DNA of 64,000 nt from Nannocystis bainbridge (lineage in GTDB: Bacteria; Myxococcota_A; Polyangia; Nannocystales; Nannocystaceae), in assembly GCF_028368995.1 (NCBI RefSeq), contig NZ_JAQNDL010000004.1, positions 352,001 through 416,000 on the forward strand, given 5' to 3'. Numbering within the stretch: the stretch's first letter is position 1; each line of letters begins with the position of its first letter. Below are positions 57,741 through 63,554 of the stretch, in pieces. Both the position numbers and the translations under genes were made by a program. Below the pieces are notes generated by a model. It was given only the letters and a program-made list of their open reading frames with translations. It was not told the DNA's origin and searched no databases.

Positions 57741-58826
57741 ATGTCCTCGCCCGCATGGTTCATTCGCTCCGTCTCGGTGCAGAAGTTCGGGTGCCTCAAG
57801 GACGTGAACGCAGCGTTGACGCCGCTGCACGCGTTCATCGGGCCGAACGATAGCGGCAAGAGCACGCTGCTGCGCGCGCTGCGGACGGCGATGCACCTGG
57901 TTCGAAGGTCATTTATTCGCGCGCCGAATGACGAAATTCAGCCCTTTGATCCGGGACCACTCTGTAGCGGGACGGCCATGCAGCTCGCCTTCGGGCCAGA
58001 TCGTGCAAAGAGCCATTTCAACTTGAAGATCCTCGATGAGGGTAACTTCGCGGAGTCCGGTGGGTCGAAGCCGTTGCTGGCGTCTCAGCGAAGCTGGATC
58101 GGGCCGCGGTCGACCAAACGAGGTTCAACGCTAACGTGGCCTCCGGAGATTTTGCCGCTGCTCGACTCGGGCGCTCGGCTCGTGCACCTAAACCCGAGCT
58201 CGCTGCGTGAGCCGAGCGAGCTCATCCCTGAGGGCGGTGGAAACGAGCTCATCGACGAGTACGGGCGGGGGCTGCCGGCCATTTACGACGCAATCCTCAA
58301 TCGCGGGGATGATGCATTCTTGCGCATGGTCGAGGGCGTTCGTCGTTTGTTTCCGACGATCAAGGCAGTCCGCCTCAAGGTGATGTCGAAGAGCACTAAG
58401 GCGCTGGAGGTGGAGCTTGTTTCGGGGGAGCGAGTGCCCGCGGCATTCCTCAGCGAGGGGCTCCTGTTCTATCTCGCCTTCGCGGCGTTGCAGCACCTCG
58501 ATCCGGTCGCGCTGTTGCTGATCGAGGAGCCCGAGAATGGGCTGCACCCGGCGCGAATCGCCGACGTCATGCGGATCCTGCGGGAGATCTCGAGTACGAC
58601 GCAGGTGGTGCTGACGACCCATAGTCCGCTCGTGATCAACGAGATGCAGGGCGACGAGGTCAGCGTGGTCACGCGCGATCGAGACAAGGGCACGATGGTC
58701 CGTCGCCTCGACTCGACCCCGAACTTCATCGAGCGCTCGAAGGTCTACGCCCTCGGAGAGCTGTGGCTGAGCTACGCGAACGGCGACGACGAGGGGCCGC
58801 TGCTCACCGCGCAGGTCGTGACATGA
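57741..58826 (+). CDS. ABC-type (AAA_21/AAA_15-like) ATPase, putative defence component
   Basis: Walker A GPNDSGKST, signature LSEG, Walker B LLIEEPENGLHP, H-loop TTHSP; more AT-rich codons than flanking genes. Confidence 0.88.
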   Translation: MSSPAWFIRSVSVQKFGCLKDVNAALTPLHAFIGPNDSGKSTLLRALRTAMHLVRRSFIRAPNDEIQPFDPGPLCSGTAMQLAFGPDRAKSHFNLKILDEGNFAESGGSKPLLASQRSWIGPRSTKRGSTLTWPPEILPLLDSGARLVHLNPSSLREPSELIPEGGGNELIDEYGRGLPAIYDAILNRGDDAFLRMVEGVRRLFPTIKAVRLKVMSKSTKALEVELVSGERVPAAFLSEGLLFYLAFAALQHLDPVALLLIEEPENGLHPARIADVMRILREISSTTQVVLTTHSPLVINEMQGDEVSVVTRDRDKGTMVRRLDSTPNFIERSKVYALGELWLSYANGDDEGPLLTAQVVT

Positions 58827-59437
58827 AGCGCGTCGTCCTCGGCGGGGAAGGGCCGAACGAGCTCGGCGGCTGGTGCAACCTGCCCCCGTATCGCGCAGAA
58901 ACACCGGTTCCGGGGGTGCTCGAGGCGCTGTTGCGGCACGTCCGTCCTGACGGATGGATCGTCATCGACGCCGTAGTTTGGAGCTCGATCCGGAAGTATC
59001 GCGCCGGAGGTCACGCGGACGCCGAGGAGCGCAACGTGCTCGGTCTGGTCTTGAAGGCGCGAGAGCGCGGCGCCGACATCGTCGCCTTCGCGCGCGACTG
59101 CGACGGCGACGGAGCGCAGCACCGCCGCCGAATCGCCTCGATCGACGTCGGGCTCGCGCGCGCGCGCGAAGAGTTTCCGCAGGGTCCAGCCGTGATTGGT
59201 GGGAGCGCCGTGCGCATGCTCGAGGCTTGGGTCCTCGCTATCGGCGGCGAGCGACGGACCGAAGAGATGGGTCGAGAGGGACTTGAGACGGGATTTCAGC
59301 GGTTCCAGATCCCGCTCAAGAAGACCCCTGCGCTGGTCGACTTTGTTCAGAAGGCGGACCTCGGCAGGATTCCCGCCGATGCCGTGTCGCTGACGAAATG
59401 GTTGGCGCGAGCGCGTGAGGTCCTCGCTCCGTCTTGA
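58823..59437 (+). CDS. TOPRIM-like (DUF4276/RloB-type) putative nuclease partner
   Basis: N-terminal strand then EGPNE, FARDCDGD (DxD), MLEAWVL; ATGA overlap with the ATPase. Confidence 0.65.
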   Translation: MKRVVLGGEGPNELGGWCNLPPYRAETPVPGVLEALLRHVRPDGWIVIDAVVWSSIRKYRAGGHADAEERNVLGLVLKARERGADIVAFARDCDGDGAQHRRRIASIDVGLARAREEFPQGPAVIGGSAVRMLEAWVLAIGGERRTEEMGREGLETGFQRFQIPLKKTPALVDFVQKADLGRIPADAVSLTKWLARAREVLAPS

Positions 59438-59626: not shown

Positions 59627-59974
59627 CTAGTCCCACTCGCACACGCGGTGCTTGCACTTCTGGCCGGCGGCGCAGTCGGCGGCGGTGCTGCAGGCGTAGA
59701 AGCAGCGCTTGTGCTCGCACAGCAGGCCGGCGGGGCACTCGGCGTCGGCCTCGCACTCGAAGGTGCACATGCCGCCGTCGCACTCCTTCTTGTCGCAGCA
59801 GTGGCCGGAGCTGCACTCGTCGTCGTCGTCGCAGAAGGCCCCGATGCCGCCGGGGCAGTTGGGGTCGTAGCGGCAGTCGCCTCCAGGGAGGCCCGGGGGT
59901 CCGCAGGTGACGCTCAGCAGGGCGCCGATGGAGAGGCCGAGGAGGGTGTGAAGCCAGCCGGGCGATCGGTGCAT
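59627..59974 (-). CDS. Small Cys-rich exported protein
   Basis: Hydrophobic signal then many Cys in C-x4/5-C repeats (CDDDDEC, CEADAEC, CSTAADC). Confidence 0.7.
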   Translation of the reverse strand: MHRSPGWLHTLLGLSIGALLSVTCGPPGLPGGDCRYDPNCPGGIGAFCDDDDECSSGHCCDKKECDGGMCTFECEADAECPAGLLCEHKRCFYACSTAADCAAGQKCKHRVCEWD

Positions 59975-60012: not shown

Positions 60013-60567
60013 TCAGGGCTGCGGTCCGGAAGCCCCGGCCGTGAGCAGGGCCGCGTCGAGCCGGGCCTCGAGATCGGCGCCGGGCAGGGCCCACACGCCG
60101 ATGAGGCCGGCCGCGCGGGCGGCGTCGATGTTGCCGCGCTGATCGTCGATGACGACGACGTCCGAGGCGAGGCCGCGGAGGTGCGCCCAGAAGCGCGGGT
60201 CGGGCTTGGCGACGCCGAGTTCGCCGCTGCAGAGCCAGTGATCGACGAGGCCGGAGTCGCCGATCTGGTCACGCACGAGGGGCAGCCAGGCGCGGGCGAA
60301 GTTGGTGGCGAGGGCGATCCGGTGGCCCCGCGCGCGCAGGCGCGAGACGAGCGCGAGCCGGTCTGTCCGCAGGCGCAGGCAGGCGCGGTAGGCGGCGGCG
60401 GTCGCCGGGTCCCAGAAGTCGTCTTCGTCGATCGCGCCGACCCGCAGGCGGTGCCAGCGGTCGCGGTCGGGGGCGCCGTCGAGCTCCCGCCACGACGGCT
60501 CGGCGAGCACGCCGATCAGGTCGAAGGCGACGAGCGGGAGGGCGGACGAGGAGGTCGGTTCGGACAT
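60013..60567 (-). CDS. HAD-superfamily phosphatase (YihX-like)
   Basis: Motif I VAFDLIGVL, ALATN, SGELGVAKPDPRF, VIDDQRGNIDAARAAG. Confidence 0.85.
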   Translation of the reverse strand: MSEPTSSSALPLVAFDLIGVLAEPSWRELDGAPDRDRWHRLRVGAIDEDDFWDPATAAAYRACLRLRTDRLALVSRLRARGHRIALATNFARAWLPLVRDQIGDSGLVDHWLCSGELGVAKPDPRFWAHLRGLASDVVVIDDQRGNIDAARAAGLIGVWALPGADLEARLDAALLTAGASGPQP

Positions 60568-60678
60568 GGTTAAAAAAGGGTCGGGCTTCAGGACGTTCAC
60601 GTCTAGCGAGCCGCTCGCGGGACGGAGGTCGACGAGGCCCGGGCCGTCGGCGGGGACCGTAGCTCGTCGCGCCGCGAG

Positions 60679-60784
60679 GAGATGTCCGAACGCACATGCT
60701 CGTATGAACATGCGCATATGGACATGTACAAACAGACATGCGCTTTTGGACCTGCGCGTTCGGACATGTCCTTCACAGCAGGCC
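60679..60784. repeat. Longest 14-bp-phased array (8 cores)
   Basis: Cores at 60679, 60693, 60707, 60721, 60735, 60749, 60763, 60777. Confidence 0.9.
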
Positions 60785-61780
60785 GTAGCGGACCAGGTGG
60801 TCGGGGGAGCGCTGCCACAGGTGGCCGACCACGGCGGTGGCGGCCTCGTCGAAGCGCTCGGCGCCGGCGCGCAGGCGGCGGTACACCGGGGAGGCGTCCC
60901 GGACGTCGTAGGCGAGGAGGTCGAGGGCGCGGCGGGTGTCGGGCTCGGCGAGGGCGGCGAGGAAGGCGTCGTAGGCGGTGACGAGGCCGGCGCACAGGGG
61001 GAGGCCGTCCAGCGGGCGCAGGGCGTCGGCGATCCGCAGCAGCGGCGGGCGGGGCAGCTGCTCGGCGAGCCAGCCGTCGCGGGCCTCGTCGGGCAGCAGC
61101 GCGGCGCGGCAGAACACGGCGAGGTTGGCGAGGTGCCACAGCTTGCGCGAGTGACGGAGCTTGAAGTAGCGGATGGCCCAGTGCTTGCCGGCGTTCTCGA
61201 CCTTGAACCGGTAGTCGACGCAGATCGTGCGGTAGTAGCGGTGGAGGTCGTTGCTCAGCGAGGTGAGGTAGCGGCCGCGGGTGATGGCGCCGGCCGTGTA
61301 GGCGCCGAACACCTGCTCGACGATGGCGGCGGCGTCGCCGGCGTTGGCCAGCCAGGCGCCCTCGGTCAGCAGGAGGGCGCGGTAGGTCAGGTGATCGTTG
61401 CTGTCGTCGCGGCCGCCGATGTCGCCGAGCAGGTCGTCGAGGACGACGGCGCTGTGGAAGGTCTTGTCGGGGACGTCGAGGCCGCGGGCGCGCAGGGCGG
61501 CGGCCAGGGCCTCGCGCGCGCCGTCGGCGTCGACGGGGGCGATGGCGCCGCGGCGGTAGACGACGGCCAGGTCGAGGTCGCTGAGGGCGCTCGACTCGTG
61601 GCGGCCGAGCGAGCCGAGCGCGAAGGCGGCGCAGCCTGGCGGGACGGCGCCGACGAGGGCGCGTCGCAGCTCGGCCAGGCGGGCGTGCGAGCCGGCGGCG
61701 GCGGCGAGCACGTGGGACGCGTCGGCTGCGGTCAACCCGAGCTCGGCGAGCAGCGGCGCGTAGTCGACCGGTCCGCGCAT
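60773..61780 (-). CDS. Pol-beta superfamily nucleotidyltransferase, HalB (Hailong)-like
   Basis: GSLGRHE...SDLDL, IGGRDDSN..LTYR.LLL.E, NDLHRYYRTICVDY..K, W.IR..KL..SRKL, C-terminal RYGLL. Confidence 0.75.
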   Translation of the reverse strand: MRGPVDYAPLLAELGLTAADASHVLAAAAGSHARLAELRRALVGAVPPGCAAFALGSLGRHESSALSDLDLAVVYRRGAIAPVDADGAREALAAALRARGLDVPDKTFHSAVVLDDLLGDIGGRDDSNDHLTYRALLLTEGAWLANAGDAAAIVEQVFGAYTAGAITRGRYLTSLSNDLHRYYRTICVDYRFKVENAGKHWAIRYFKLRHSRKLWHLANLAVFCRAALLPDEARDGWLAEQLPRPPLLRIADALRPLDGLPLCAGLVTAYDAFLAALAEPDTRRALDLLAYDVRDASPVYRRLRAGAERFDEAATAVVGHLWQRSPDHLVRYGLL

Positions 61781-61781
61781 G

Positions 61782-62879
61782 TCAGATCTCCGGGCCCTCG
61801 GCGCCGGGTATGACTGTCCATCGGGACATGTCCTCATGGACATGGTCGTCGAGCGTGATCGGCAGGGTCAGCTGGGCCGCGGCGTGGCGCGGGCTGACGA
61901 ACGCGAGCTGACGGCTGTGACGGTAGCGGCGCGACCACTGCGGGCGAGCGAGGCCGTGCGGACCGGGGGCGACGGTGGCGTCGACGAAGTAGCGCTTGTG
62001 CACGCGCGGGACCACGTCGTCGCCGCCGGGCGGGGGCACGCGGGTGCTCTGGAAGCGGTCGTCTTGCCCTTCGGACAGGCCGCTGCGGCGCGCGTGAGTC
62101 TCGACCAGGCCGCGCAGGGCGGCGTCGTCGAACTCGGCGAAGCGGGCGAAGATCCGGTGGTCGAACGCGTCGGCGACCGCGCGCGACAGCTCGGCCTCGC
62201 ACACGATGTTGGAGGGCAGGTTGATGACCTCGCTGTAGATCCGGTCCTTGAGGTTCCAGAAGCGGTCGATGACGGGGAGCGCGTCGGGGTCGATGAGCAG
62301 CTCGCGGCCGCGGCGGACGAACACGGCCCGCGGCAGGCGCACGCCGGCGCGGCCGAAGGTGCGGGCGGTGCGGACGATGCCGTCGAGGGTGTCGAGGTTG
62401 ATCGGGGCGAGCAGCAGGGCCGAGAGGTCGAGCGCGAGGCCGTCGCCGCGGCCGCCGATGATGGCCCACACGCGCTCGGGGTCGAGGTCGACGCTCTGCA
62501 GCACGGGGCGCAGCGAGAGGGCCTCCGGGATCGCGCCGTTGCCGAGGACGATCCACTCGCTGACGCCGTGGTGGGCGACGCCGAGGGCCCGCTCGAAGCC
62601 CGGCTCGGCCGCGTGCGACAGCGGGAAGTGGCCGATGTCGTGCAGCAGGCAGGCGGCGACGAAGTGGCGCAGATCGGCCTCGGCGAGGCCCAGCGCGGCG
62701 CCGAAGCGGTGACCGAGGGTGGCGACGCCGAGCGAGTGGTCGAGGCGGGTCGCGGGGTCGTGGCTGCGCGGGTGCCAGTCGAGGGTGCCGAGGAAGCTGA
62801 CCCGACCGAGGCGCTGCACCCACGACGAGTCGAGCAGCGGAGCGCCGAGCAGACGGACGAGGGCCGGGGGGGGAGGCAC
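61782..62879 (-). CDS. HD-domain phosphohydrolase (dNTP triphosphohydrolase-like)
   Basis: VQRLGRVSFLG, RLDHSLGV, LLHDIGHFPLSH, INLDTLD; GTG start inferred. Confidence 0.82.
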   Translation of the reverse strand: MPPPPALVRLLGAPLLDSSWVQRLGRVSFLGTLDWHPRSHDPATRLDHSLGVATLGHRFGAALGLAEADLRHFVAACLLHDIGHFPLSHAAEPGFERALGVAHHGVSEWIVLGNGAIPEALSLRPVLQSVDLDPERVWAIIGGRGDGLALDLSALLLAPINLDTLDGIVRTARTFGRAGVRLPRAVFVRRGRELLIDPDALPVIDRFWNLKDRIYSEVINLPSNIVCEAELSRAVADAFDHRIFARFAEFDDAALRGLVETHARRSGLSEGQDDRFQSTRVPPPGGDDVVPRVHKRYFVDATVAPGPHGLARPQWSRRYRHSRQLAFVSPRHAAAQLTLPITLDDHVHEDMSRWTVIPGAEGPEI

Positions 62880-63050: not shown

Positions 63051-63554
63051 ATGACGAAGAAGTCCGCGAAGATCCGCTGTTGGCTGATGAAGAGCGAGCC
63101 GGACGTGTTCTCGATCGACGATCTGCAGCGGCTCGGCAAGACCGCCTGGGAGGGCGTGCGCAACTACACCGCCCGCAACTCGATGCGCGACGACATGAAG
63201 ATCGGCGACCTGGTGATCTTCTACCACTCGAGCGTCGAGCCCGCCGGCGCGGTCGGGCTCGCTCGCGTGTGCAGCGCGCCGTACCCCGATCCGACCCAGT
63301 TCGACGAGAAGAGCGAGTACCACGATCCCAAGGCGACCCGCGAGGCGCCGCGGTGGATCCTCGTCGACGTCGAGTTCGTCGAGAAGTGGCCGGCGATGGT
63401 GACGCTGCAGGCGCTCAAGGCCGACAAGAAGCTGAAGGACATGCTGGTGGTGCAGAAGGGTCAGCGGCTGAGCGTGCAGGCGGTCGAGCCGCGCCACTTC
63501 GTGCACGTGCTGCAGCTGGCCGGCAGCGCGCAGGGCGAGGCGGTGTCGGCGTGA
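63051..63554 (+). CDS. EVE domain protein
   Basis: WLMKSEPDVFSIDDL, WEGVRNYTARN, FYHS, YPDPTQFD, QRLSVQ. Confidence 0.93.
   Translation: MTKKSAKIRCWLMKSEPDVFSIDDLQRLGKTAWEGVRNYTARNSMRDDMKIGDLVIFYHSSVEPAGAVGLARVCSAPYPDPTQFDEKSEYHDPKATREAPRWILVDVEFVEKWPAMVTLQALKADKKLKDMLVVQKGQRLSVQAVEPRHFVHVLQLAGSAQGEAVSA

What the first reader, a model, noticed from the sequence alone, without database searches (positions are those of the whole stretch)
60013..62879. HD phosphohydrolase plus HalB-like nucleotidyltransferase (plus HAD): Hailong-like system with a soluble enzymatic effector
Seen: the HD gene stops 1 bp before the NTase start. The NTase has the Pol-beta GS..R/SDxD motif, ND..RY.RT..VDY..K and KL..SRKL motifs and a C-terminal Tyr (RYGLL). 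A co-oriented HAD phosphatase follows. Established: Hailong HalB makes oligo-dA primed on a C-terminal Tyr, and this holds the membrane effector HalA inactive; HD dNTPases defend by depleting nucleotides. Assignment to the HalB family is from motif recall. No membrane HalA is encoded here. Inference: a guard-type system in which an NTase-made oligonucleotide gates a dNTP-degrading HD enzyme, with the HAD trimming the signal or products.
Basis: partly seen in the sequence, partly recalled or inferred. Interest (0 to 1): 0.8.

Follow-up and report, generated by a model that had tools for sequence, protein, structure and literature searches.

The report
SAMHD1-like dNTPase with partner nucleotidyltransferase

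Summary
The three genes are real and lie where stated. They are HD 61782-62879, NTase 60773-61780 and HAD 60013-60567, all on the minus strand, and the HD stop is 1 nt from the NTase start.

The Hailong assignment does not hold. The NTase is 335 aa and adopts the GlnE/DrrA adenylyltransferase fold (Z 13.2-13.9). HalB aligns only weakly (TM 0.22). The C-terminal Tyr is Phe in 12 of 16 relatives. No HalA-like gene is present.

The HD belongs to the SAMHD1/EF1143 clade of dNTP triphosphohydrolases (Z 21-24). Clover's CloA scores Z 13.8. The HD keeps the HD...H..E catalytic signature.

HD-NTase adjacency is conserved: 23 of 25 informative metagenome loci and 27 of 29 Nannocystaceae genome loci. 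A homologous pair is the only cargo gene pair found on a 4.5-kb E. coli plasmid. The HAD is a clade-specific accessory.

The NTase is a relative of PADLOC candidate PDC-M70A. Its relatives pair with other hydrolases: a TIM barrel, or a DEDDh exonuclease.

Best reading: an effector-regulator module with Clover-like logic, in which a dNTPase is restrained by its NTase. The chemistry of the restraint (free nucleotide or covalent nucleotidylylation) is open. The idea is already published as Clover, so this is a new variant of a known kind.

The parts
61782..62879 (-). HD gene, 365 aa: a SAMHD1/EF1143-clade dNTP triphosphohydrolase-like protein. The C-terminal tail (residues 334-365) is predicted disordered and ends in a conserved E-x-P-E-[ILF].
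   Evidence: Pfam HD scores 2e-8. Invariant residues in 16 sequences are H48, H80, D81, H84, H89, E92 and D163. The model has pLDDT 87. VIA-align gives 2hek Z 23.8, SAMHD1 21.7-22.8 and EF1143 22.7, against CloA 9p8s Z 13.8. The family profile against PDB sequences gives 2q14 1.2e-10, 2hek 8.5e-10 and 2o6i 1.1e-9. The tail motif is seen.
60773..61780 (-). Nucleotidyltransferase, 335 aa, with a GlnE/DrrA-type fold. It is a relative of PADLOC candidate PDC-M70A. The catalytic motif is GSxGRxE...SDLD (D68, D70).
   Evidence: Pfam DUF294 scores 6.1e-5. PADLOC PDC-M70A scores 1.5e-37 over profile positions 16-338 of 355. The invariant motif residues are listed. The model has pLDDT 90.6. VIA-align gives DrrA Z 13.9, GlnE 13.3 and 13.2, and the next hit 6.0.
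60568..60772 (-). NTase-HAD spacer of 205 nt. It carries inverted repeats built on GTTCGGACAT and one copy of the palindrome GGACATGTCC (60762-60771).
   Evidence: Sequence. Inverted repeats I3 and I4.
60013..60567 (-). HAD-IA-type hydrolase, 184 aa. Motif I reads FDLIGVL. It is an accessory third gene found in only one sub-clade.
   Evidence: Pfam Hydrolase scores 2.2e-10. NCBIfam HAD-SF-IA-v3 scores 29.7 bits against a cut-off of 29.4. The gene lies downstream of the NTase in 20 of 25 informative metagenome loci and in 15 of 29 genome loci.
59627..59974 (-). Small Cys-rich protein with a signal-like N-terminus. It is co-oriented and starts 39 nt after the HAD stop. It is conserved in the HAD-bearing clade. 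Whether it belongs to the module is uncertain.
   Evidence: ORF. tblastn synteny. There is a weak DUF7107 match below Pfam's cut-off (4.3e-4).

Best explanation
HD and NTase form a self-contained two-gene effector-regulator module.

- **Effector.** The HD protein is a SAMHD1-family dNTP triphosphohydrolase whose unrestrained activity would drain dNTP pools.
- **Regulator.** The NTase, encoded directly downstream, is its dedicated negative regulator. Most likely it makes a small nucleotide product that binds the HD oligomer and holds it off. The brake is then lost or overridden when the nucleotide pool or the NTase is perturbed, for example by phage. This is the logic shown experimentally for Clover (CloA/CloB).
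- **Accessory.** The HAD phosphatase occurs in only one sub-clade. I infer that it turns over the phosphorylated signal or nucleotide products.

Shown here: the gene content, the folds, the conserved catalytic residues, the conserved linkage, the spread across phyla, and partner swapping in the NTase family.

Inferred: the dNTPase activity, the toxicity, the inhibitory product, and a role in defence or addiction.
For: **(1) The HD looks like an active dNTPase.**
- It has the dNTPase catalytic signature HD-x7-H-x2-E (H80 D81 ... H89 ... E92). The spacing is the same as CloA H117 D118 H126 E129.
- Its fold is the full-length SAMHD1/EF1143 fold, Z 21-24.

**(2) The NTase looks active.** GSxGR, D68 and D70 are invariant in 16 sequences.

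**(3) Linkage is conserved.**
- HD lies directly upstream of the NTase in 23 of 25 informative metagenome loci, down to 41% NTase identity.
- It does so in 27 of 29 genome loci from the family. One further locus has an HD piece about 1.3 kb away, and one has none within 1.5 kb.

**(4) The pair moves as a unit.** Both genes, in the same order, are the only cargo gene pair found on the 4,499-bp Rop-type E. coli plasmid NZ_CP092257.1. The plasmid HD scores 114 bits and the plasmid NTase 192 bits against the Nannocystaceae profiles.

**(5) The NTase family swaps hydrolase partners.**
- Canonical PDC-M70A pairs with the TIM-barrel protein PDC-M70B.
- Ten genomes of the phylum sample (401 searched) carry such an NTase. 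The partner is a DEDDh exonuclease in 5, a TIM barrel in 1, the HD in 1, a TPR protein or unknown in 1, and a Cof-type HAD in 1. In the last genome the contig is too short to see a partner.

**(6) The HD is not the genome's only dNTPase.** A canonical dGTPase above the TIGR01353 cut-off lies elsewhere in the genome.

**(7) The logic has experimental precedent.** Clover establishes dNTPase + NTase operons as defence systems in which the NTase product inhibits the dNTPase and NTase mutants are toxic. I read sections 2, 4 and 5 of PMC12265719.
Against: - No biochemical data exist for this family.
- The HD is in the SAMHD1 clade, not CloA's Dgt clade. CloA scores Z 13.8 over 232 residues, against 21-24 over 302-317 residues for the SAMHD1 clade. 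The CloA ligand pockets therefore cannot be transferred.
- Homology of the NTase to CloB could not be tested. No CloB structure is deposited, and the preprint's supplement held only 77 readable characters.
- As far as I recall, all characterised members of the NTase's fold class (GlnE, DrrA) modify protein tyrosines. That favours the covalent rival.
- The distribution in Nannocystaceae is clade-structured rather than patchy. A strong orthologue is present in 40 of 73 genomes. It is in all genomes of genera g1 (10/10), g264 (5/5), g265 (7/7) and g269 (11/11), and in none of g2 (0/11) or g256 (0/8).
- The locus sits at a syntenic chromosomal site beside a core EVE gene. This looks more like vertical inheritance than defence-island turnover.
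- No homologue was found in phage records or viral contigs.
Confidence: 0.35

Rival explanations
1. Covalent control. The module has the same effector-regulator architecture, but the NTase neutralises the HD by nucleotidylylating it on a hydroxyl side chain. GlnE does this to glutamine synthetase, DrrA to Rab1, and the MNT antitoxin to its HEPN toxin (type VII toxin-antitoxin). A signal-dependent loss of modification would release dNTPase activity.
For: - The NTase's only strong structural relatives are the protein adenylyltransferases DrrA (Z 13.9, 250 residues aligned) and the two GlnE domains (Z 13.3 and 13.2). The next hit scores 6.0.
- Pfam gives DUF294 for the NTase, and GlnE or SidM_N for some homologues.
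- MntA-HepT complexes appear among the Foldseek hits.
- The HD has invariant or nearly invariant tyrosines inside basic motifs (R292 K295 R296 Y297, and R318 Y319). It also has a conserved motif at the end of a disordered tail, which could serve as a docking or target site. K-R-Y is also present in the E. coli plasmid HD.
- That the characterised GlnE, DrrA and MNT enzymes all modify tyrosines is recalled knowledge, not a call result.
Against: - A shared fold does not fix the acceptor.
- The NTase family pairs with at least three unrelated hydrolase folds. A covalent mechanism would need a new protein-protein recognition each time.
- Clover and Hailong, the two characterised 'NTase restrains effector' systems, both use free or protein-primed nucleotides rather than effector modification.
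Confidence: 0.25
2. Housekeeping nucleotide metabolism. HD, NTase and (where present) HAD act as ordinary enzymes of nucleotide turnover or dNTP-pool control in a sub-clade of Nannocystaceae, for instance during development. They are inherited vertically and have no conflict or defence role.
For: - Presence is all-or-none by genus. 40 of 73 family genomes have a strong orthologue, and whole genera have it or lack it.
- There is a single copy per genome.
- Synteny EVE-HD-NTase-HAD-Cys-rich gene-peptidase is conserved across Nannocystis and related metagenome contigs.
- G+C content matches the flanks.
- The neighbours are an EVE gene, found in 5 of 5 family genomes that lack the pair, and often a CYTH gene. 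I recall CYTH enzymes as triphosphatases that could clear the PPPi released by a dNTP triphosphohydrolase.
- NTase and HD identities fall together, from 94/93% to about 47/47%.
Against: - A canonical dGTPase already exists elsewhere in the genome.
- The homologous pair is the only cargo gene pair found on a 4.5-kb E. coli plasmid.
- The gammaproteobacterial NTase relatives, 720 hits spread over many genera, suggest horizontal spread.
- The NTase matches a PADLOC defence-candidate model, and its relatives pair with nucleases in islands that hold SIR2, AbiEii-like and IS genes.
- A variable AAA_21 ATPase pair is inserted 1 kb away in only 2 of 6 Nannocystis loci.
Confidence: 0.25
3. Hailong-like. 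The NTase is a HalB homologue that makes protein-primed oligo-dA on a C-terminal Tyr, and this DNA holds the effector (here the HD) inactive.
For: - The NTase has the Pol-beta DxD core.
- HalB chains appear low in the Foldseek list: 9dbj_F at rank 10 with E 0.12, and 9dbh_B and 9dbi_A lower still.
- In the window the NTase ends in RYGLL.
- Five other tyrosines are invariant (Y133, Y161, Y182, Y183, Y190), so self-priming on another Tyr is not excluded.
Against: - There is no sequence match to HalB with a 16-sequence profile at E <= 10.
- TMq to HalB is 0.19-0.22, against Z 13-14 for GlnE and DrrA.
- The NTase is 335 aa, whereas the solved HalB chains are 216-222 aa.
- The C-terminal Tyr is Phe in 12 of 16 relatives and absent in the E. 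coli homologue.
- No HalA-like membrane gene is adjacent.
Confidence: 0.03

Closest known systems
Clover (CloA dGTPase + CloB NTase; Yamaguchi et al., preprint PMC12265719, cited as published in 2026 by review PMC13434031)
   Same: Both are two-gene operons of an HD-superfamily dNTPase with the HD...H..E dyad plus a DxD nucleotidyltransferase. The predicted logic is the same: the NTase restrains a potentially toxic dNTPase.
   Different: The HD here is of the SAMHD1/EF1143 clade, 365 aa (Z 21-24). It is not CloA's Dgt clade, 453 aa (Z 13.8). SpdGTPase 9p8w matches only around the HD motif (E 1e-4). CloB homology was not testable. Part of the clade has an extra HAD gene. In Nannocystaceae the pair follows genus lines and keeps one chromosomal site; the Clover preprint describes its systems as found in defence islands. 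The signal and the trigger are unknown.
Hailong (HalA channel + HalB NTase; known here from review passages, and PDB titles)
   Same: In both, an NTase acts as negative regulator of an effector, and both NTases share the Pol-beta core.
   Different: There is no HalA. The NTase is 335 aa with a GlnE/DrrA fold, against about 220 aa for HalB. There is no sequence match, and TMq is 0.22. The proposed priming Tyr is not conserved.
PADLOC candidate system PDC-M70 (A = NTase, B = xylose-isomerase-like TIM barrel); untested candidate. No paper holds the term 'PDC-M70'.
   Same: The NTase matches PDC-M70A over its full length at 1.5e-37.
   Different: Canonical A proteins score 1e-126 to 1e-146 and sit beside PDC-M70B, which scores 1e-78 to 1e-106. 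Here the partner is an HD encoded upstream, and no B protein is present.
GlnE / DrrA (SidM) / GlnD-type protein nucleotidylyltransferases
   Same: These are the best structural matches over the whole NTase (Z 13.2-13.9). The G-S-x-G-R-x-E ... S-D-x-D motif is shared. That the motif typifies this group is recalled, not tested.
   Different: There is no glutamine synthetase, PII or Rab context. The NTase is a stand-alone 335-aa protein tied to a dNTPase.
SAMHD1 / EF1143 / Aquifex O67745 (2hek) dNTP triphosphohydrolases
   Same: The fold matches over the full length, and the metal and catalytic residues are conserved.
   Different: The HD is shorter (365 aa), has a disordered tail with a conserved terminal motif, and is obligately linked to an NTase.
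MNT-HEPN type VII toxin-antitoxin
   Same: In both, an NTase is encoded beside a potentially toxic hydrolase. MntA appears among the Foldseek hits.
   Different: The NTase sub-fold and size differ, and the partner is an HD rather than a HEPN protein. The match covers the NTase core only (TMq 0.23).

Membership tests
Hailong (HalB/HalA) | NTase related to HalB beyond the shared Pol-beta core | tested here: inconclusive
   The profile finds no HalB in PDB sequences at E <= 10. Foldseek aligns HalB 9dbj_F at E 0.12, probability 0.54, TMq 0.22 and TMt 0.29. HalB is not among the 50 rows shown by VIA-align, whose top hits are DrrA and GlnE at Z 13-14.
Hailong (HalB/HalA) | Adjacent HalA transmembrane effector | tested here: not met
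   The neighbours are the HD (upstream) and the HAD (downstream). No channel-like gene is present.
   The Tyr of RYGLL is present in 4 of 16 sequences and is Phe in the other 12. The E. coli homologue ends ...SLIF. Other invariant tyrosines exist, so priming elsewhere is untested.
Hailong (HalB/HalA) | Template-independent oligo-dA synthesis | not testable with these tools
   This needs biochemistry.
Clover (CloA/CloB) | dNTPase with HD metal motif and H..E catalytic dyad | tested here: met
   H48, H80, D81, H89, E92 and D163 are invariant in 16 sequences. The spacing equals CloA H117/D118/H126/E129.
Clover (CloA/CloB) | Effector is a CloA-type (Dgt-clade) dGTPase with a C-terminal helical bundle | tested here: not met
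   CloA 9p8s_A scores Z 13.8 with 232 residues aligned (model residues 8-261). It groups with Dgt-type enzymes at Z 12-14.5. The SAMHD1-clade structures score Z 21.0-23.8 with 302-317 residues aligned.
Clover (CloA/CloB) | Adjacent NTase with catalytic DxD | tested here: met
   D68 and D70 are invariant. Adjacency holds in 23 of 25 and 27 of 29 loci.
Clover (CloA/CloB) | NTase homologous to CloB | not testable with these tools
   No CloB chain was found in the PDB. The preprint's Supplementary Table 1 was unreadable, with 77 characters held. The SA20044414 plasmid carries no Clover genes, and the chromosome is not held. One lead only: gammaproteobacterial relatives have DxD at positions 60-64, and the preprint quotes CloB mutants D61/D63 and D71/D73.
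Clover (CloA/CloB) | p3diT signal inhibits the effector, dTTP activates it | not testable with these tools
   This needs biochemistry.
PADLOC PDC-M70 | PDC-M70A NTase | tested here: met
   1.5e-37 over profile positions 16-338 of 355. This is much weaker than canonical members, which score 1e-126 to 1e-146, so it is a relative and not an orthologue.
PADLOC PDC-M70 | Adjacent PDC-M70B TIM-barrel protein | tested here: not met
   No PDC-M70B match was found among the window's neighbouring proteins. The partner is an HD.
GlnE/DrrA-type adenylyltransferases | NTase domain plus following helical domain in the GlnE/DrrA arrangement | tested here: met
   6yx5_B scores Z 13.9 (250 aligned), 3k7d_B 13.3 (256) and 1v4a_A 13.2 (275). 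These cover model residues 17-335, and the next hit scores 6.0.
GlnE/DrrA-type adenylyltransferases | Protein tyrosine as acceptor | not testable with these tools
   The complex prediction gave no answer. Mass spectrometry is needed.
SAMHD1/EF1143 dNTP triphosphohydrolases | Full-length fold and H...HD...D metal site | tested here: met
   
SAMHD1/EF1143 dNTP triphosphohydrolases | dNTP to deoxynucleoside + triphosphate activity | not testable with these tools
   This needs an enzyme assay.

The most novel reading that the evidence does not exclude
The PDC-M70A-like NTases are GlnE/DrrA-type protein nucleotidylyltransferases that switch off a toxic partner hydrolase by covalent modification. 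In different lineages the partner is a SAMHD1-type dNTPase, a DEDDh exonuclease or an endonuclease-IV-like TIM barrel. This would make them a large, unrecognised superfamily of type-VII-like toxin-antitoxin or defence modules. In Nannocystaceae the dNTPase version has been fixed as a chromosomal dNTP-pool switch, with the HAD and the neighbouring CYTH triphosphatase clearing products.
Probability: 0.2. Interest if true: 0.75.

Novelty: new variant of a known kind. Interest (0 to 1): 0.45.

Why it matters
- If the module works as proposed, the Clover principle (a nucleotide-depleting effector held off by its own NTase) extends from Dgt-type dGTPases to the SAMHD1 clade. That is the clade of the human antiviral enzyme.
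- It would link an untested PADLOC candidate family (PDC-M70) to a concrete mechanism with interchangeable hydrolase effectors.
- The 4.5-kb E. coli plasmid version gives a directly testable, compact pair in a laboratory host.
- The long vertical retention in Nannocystaceae raises the question of whether such modules become addictive or are domesticated for cellular dNTP control.

Tried and rejected
- **Complex prediction.** The HD + NTase job gave no answer: score 0.00 in two runs, and the controls were not run. It was sent only after seven hand-ins that the tool did not accept because its queue was full.
- **Clover preprint supplement.** Only 77 characters were readable, and there were no hits for Nannocystis, Myxococc or a motif. 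CloB homologue sequences therefore remained unseen.
- **Hailong primary paper (PMC12360457).** It is not held. Hailong facts come from review passages and PDB entry titles.
- **NTase against phage records.** No match at E <= 1.
- **Gammaproteobacterial NTase alignment against viral contigs.** 55 pattern hits, none confirmed.
- **E. coli plasmid NTase DNA against 5,426 complete E. coli genomes.** It found only the plasmid itself.
- **Salmonella SA20044414 plasmid NZ_CP030210.** Both halves were read, and no dGTPase or NTase pair is annotated.
- **Enterobacterial genome survey.** Centring a genome survey on the E. coli plasmid was not possible, because W handles have no relatives.
- **'Empty site' test.** EVE is present in 5 of 5 family genomes that lack the pair, but it has different neighbours there. 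Insertion versus loss could not be told apart.
- **NCBIfam.** There is no family for the NTase, and only sub-threshold dGTPase hits for the HD.
- **Literature.** 'PDC-M70' occurs in no held paper. Searches for dNTPase + NTase operons found only the Clover preprint and reviews.

Full report
**What is there**

The window is about 72% G+C. It belongs to a Nannocystis genome: five named Nannocystis species carry the NTase at 88-94% identity.

Three co-oriented genes lie on the minus strand.
- **HD, 61782-62879 (365 aa).** The GTG start gives the length of the annotated orthologue P0121.
- **NTase, 60773-61780 (335 aa).**
- **HAD hydrolase, 60013-60567 (184 aa).** It follows a 205-nt spacer.

Pfam gives HD (2e-8), DUF294 (6.1e-5) and Hydrolase (4.7e-10). 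The tight spacing is not conserved even within the genus. It is 4 nt from the last HD codon to the NTase start in the window and L005, and 68-359 nt in L001-L004.

**The NTase is not HalB-like**

- phmmer of the NTase against all PDB sequences finds nothing at E <= 10.
- A 16-sequence family profile finds only weak NTase-core matches: minimal NTase 1wot at 0.0058 and GlnE 3k7d at 0.17. It finds no HalB.
- The AlphaFold model is confident, with pLDDT 90.6 and pTM 0.90.
- Foldseek ranks DrrA (E 3e-3, TM 0.46) and GlnE 1v4a first. HalB 9dbj_F comes at rank 10 with E 0.12 and TMq 0.22, and the solved HalB chains are 216-222 aa.
- VIA-align against 48,161 representative chains gives DrrA Z 13.9 (250 aligned), GlnE C-domain 13.3 (256) and GlnE N-domain 13.2 (275). 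The next hit falls to 6.0.
- No membrane-channel gene is adjacent.

**The HD is a SAMHD1-clade dNTPase-like protein**

In a 16-sequence alignment H48, H80, D81, H84, H89, E92 and D163 are invariant. The HD-x7-H-x2-E spacing equals CloA's H117 D118 H126 E129.

The family profile hits PDB sequences 2q14 (1.2e-10), 2hek (8.5e-10) and EF1143 2o6i (1.1e-9) over about 220-250 positions. The defence dGTPase 9p8w matches only around the HD motif (1e-4).

The model has pLDDT 87, with residues 334-365 disordered. VIA-align gives two tiers.
- **SAMHD1 clade:** 2hek Z 23.8, fungal SAMHD1 22.8, EF1143 22.7, 2q14 22.6, human SAMHD1 21.7 and C. elegans 21.0, with 302-317 residues aligned.
- **Dgt clade:** 2dqb 14.5, 2pgs 14.0, CloA 9p8s 13.8, and others 12.2-13.6, with about 225-234 aligned.

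Foldseek agrees.

The genome has a separate canonical dGTPase above the TIGR01353 cut-off, so this HD is an extra enzyme. All 22 HD sequences read from loci end in a conserved E-x-P-[ED]-[ILF] at the tip of the disordered tail. I have no explanation for this motif.

**Linkage is conserved**

*Metagenome loci.* Of the 32 found with the NTase alignment, 7 have under 200 nt upstream and are uninformative.
- Of the other 25, 23 have the HD directly upstream, down to 41% NTase identity.
- L032 has a VanY-like gene there instead. L035 has no HD within 2 kb.
- The HAD is downstream in 20 of 25 loci with enough downstream sequence.
- L033, L034, L038, L039 and L040 lack it.
- L038, L040 and L064 carry a different 384-aa third gene with no Pfam match.

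*Reference genomes.* All 73 genomes of the order belong to one family.
- 40 have a strong orthologue (E < 1e-100).
- The pattern follows genera: 10/10, 5/5, 7/7 and 11/11 in four genera, against 0/11 and 0/8 in two others.
- In the 29 loci returned, the HD is directly upstream in 27. It is present about 1.3 kb away in L051 and not seen within 1.5 kb in L067.
- The HAD is present in 15 of the 29.

Within Nannocystis the order EVE - HD - NTase - HAD - Cys-rich gene - 1127-aa peptidase is syntenic.

**The pair also occurs outside the phylum**

tblastn of the NTase against 72,556 plasmids finds four records. One is the 4,499-bp circular Rop-type E. coli plasmid NZ_CP092257.1.
- Its annotated NTase (711-1706) is preceded by an unannotated 350-aa ORF that crosses the record origin (4131 to 684).
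- That ORF carries ISFLGAIDY, AALLHDIGHMPLSHSAEP and INADTIDGIVR.
- It scores 114 bits against the Nannocystaceae HD profile, with blastp at 28.6% over 224 aa and E 1e-24.
- The NTase scores 192 bits.
- Apart from rop, this pair is the plasmid's only evident cargo.

The E. coli NTase has 720 relatives at E <= 0.001. The named ones include Enterobacter, Pantoea, Pectobacterium, Dickeya, Klebsiella, Salmonella, Citrobacter, Serratia, Pseudomonas and Aliarcobacter. Their alignment is homologous to the Nannocystaceae family over its full length: hhalign probability 100%, E 1e-42, 307 columns. I could not see their gene neighbourhoods.

**The NTase family swaps partners**

The window's NTase matches PADLOC PDC-M70A at 1.5e-37. 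Canonical PDC-M70A proteins (1e-126 to 1e-146) are followed by PDC-M70B. This is a xylose-isomerase-like TIM barrel scoring 1e-78 to 1e-106, and it sits on rhizobial plasmids among SIR2, AbiEii-like and IS genes.

In a 401-genome sample of the phylum, 10 genomes have such an NTase. Their partners are listed below.

| Partner | Genomes |
|---|---|
| DEDDh exonuclease directly upstream | 5 |
| PDC-M70B TIM barrel | 1 |
| The HD (this genome) | 1 |
| TPR protein or unknown | 1 |
| Cof-type HAD | 1 |
| Contig too short to see | 1 |

Two of the five exonucleases match PADLOC's 'Effector Exonuclease' model at 1e-36 to 1e-38.

A constant NTase with interchangeable hydrolases is the architecture of effector-regulator conflict systems.

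**Comparison with the literature**

I read the abstract and main text sections 2, 4, 5, 7, 23 and 26, and passages of section 28, of preprint PMC12265719. I also read passages of review PMC13434031.
- CloA is a dGTPase activated by dTTP.
- CloB makes p3diT, which inhibits CloA.
- CloB mutants are toxic.
- More than 650 dNTPase-NTase systems are reported.

The present pair shares the logic and the catalytic motifs, but its HD is from the sister (SAMHD1) clade. Its NTase could not be compared with CloB. No CloB structure was found, the supplementary sequences were unreadable, and the Salmonella plasmid of the source strain lacks the system.

**Verdict on mechanism**

I rank the explanations as follows.
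1. Clover-like restraint of a SAMHD1-type dNTPase by a small NTase product: 0.35.
2. The same architecture, but with covalent nucleotidylylation of the HD. The GlnE/DrrA fold and conserved Tyr-containing basic motifs favour this: 0.25.
3. Housekeeping nucleotide metabolism. The genus-structured, syntenic, single-copy distribution beside a core EVE gene favours this: 0.25.
4. Hailong-like protein-primed oligo-dA: 0.03.

The complex prediction gave no answer and carries no weight.

The finding is a real, conserved module. The Hailong label is wrong, and the concept is already in print, so I score interest at 0.45 and class it as a new variant of a known kind.

Noticed in passing
window 2274, 2330, 9019, 27428, 37411, 47386, 59547, 59610, 60762, 61824: The palindrome GGACATGTCC occurs 10 times, against 0.09 expected. 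Four copies lie in 59.5-61.9 kb. One is just after the NTase stop, and one is inside the HD 3' end, 40 nt before the NTase start. The NTase-HAD spacer holds related inverted repeats. In L001 the HD-NTase gap carries an insert of about 250 nt, and the HD frame reads on for 80 aa. This could be a REP-like element or an operator.
   Followed up: partly
window 57741-58826 (+) and 58763-59437 (+): An AAA_21 ATPase (Pfam 1.3e-27; PADLOC HEC-01A, AriA and MAD3-like) is followed by an overlapping 224-aa protein with no family match. The pair is present in only the window and L001 among 6 Nannocystis loci. This looks like a variable defence-type insertion beside the operon.
   Followed up: partly
window 63051-63554 (+) and about 63560 to the window end (+): An EVE-domain gene (7.3e-52) is followed by a CYTH-domain gene (8.8e-11), and both are divergent from the HD. 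CYTH follows EVE in L001-L005, L016, L017, L019, L033 and L039, but not in L018, L022 or L023. EVE is present in 5 of 5 family genomes that lack the pair. I recall CYTH enzymes as triphosphatases, so one could clear the PPPi released by a dNTP triphosphohydrolase. That idea is untested.
   Followed up: partly
window 59627-59974 (-): A small Cys-rich protein with a signal-like N-terminus and a weak DUF7107 match starts 39 nt after the HAD stop. It is conserved in the HAD-bearing clade.
   Followed up: no
L038 5267-6421, L040, L064: In a clade without the HAD, a 384-aa protein with no Pfam match overlaps the NTase stop and replaces the HAD as third gene.
   Followed up: partly
HD residues 334-365 (window about 61785-61880): The HD has a disordered C-terminal tail. 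It ends in a conserved E-x-P-[ED]-[ILF] in all 22 Nannocystaceae HD sequences read. The motif is absent from the E. coli plasmid HD. Its function is unknown.
   Followed up: no
L048 (NZ_CP092257.1) 4131 to 684 across the record origin: A 350-aa HD ORF is not annotated in the plasmid record, apparently because it crosses the start of the circular sequence.
   Followed up: yes
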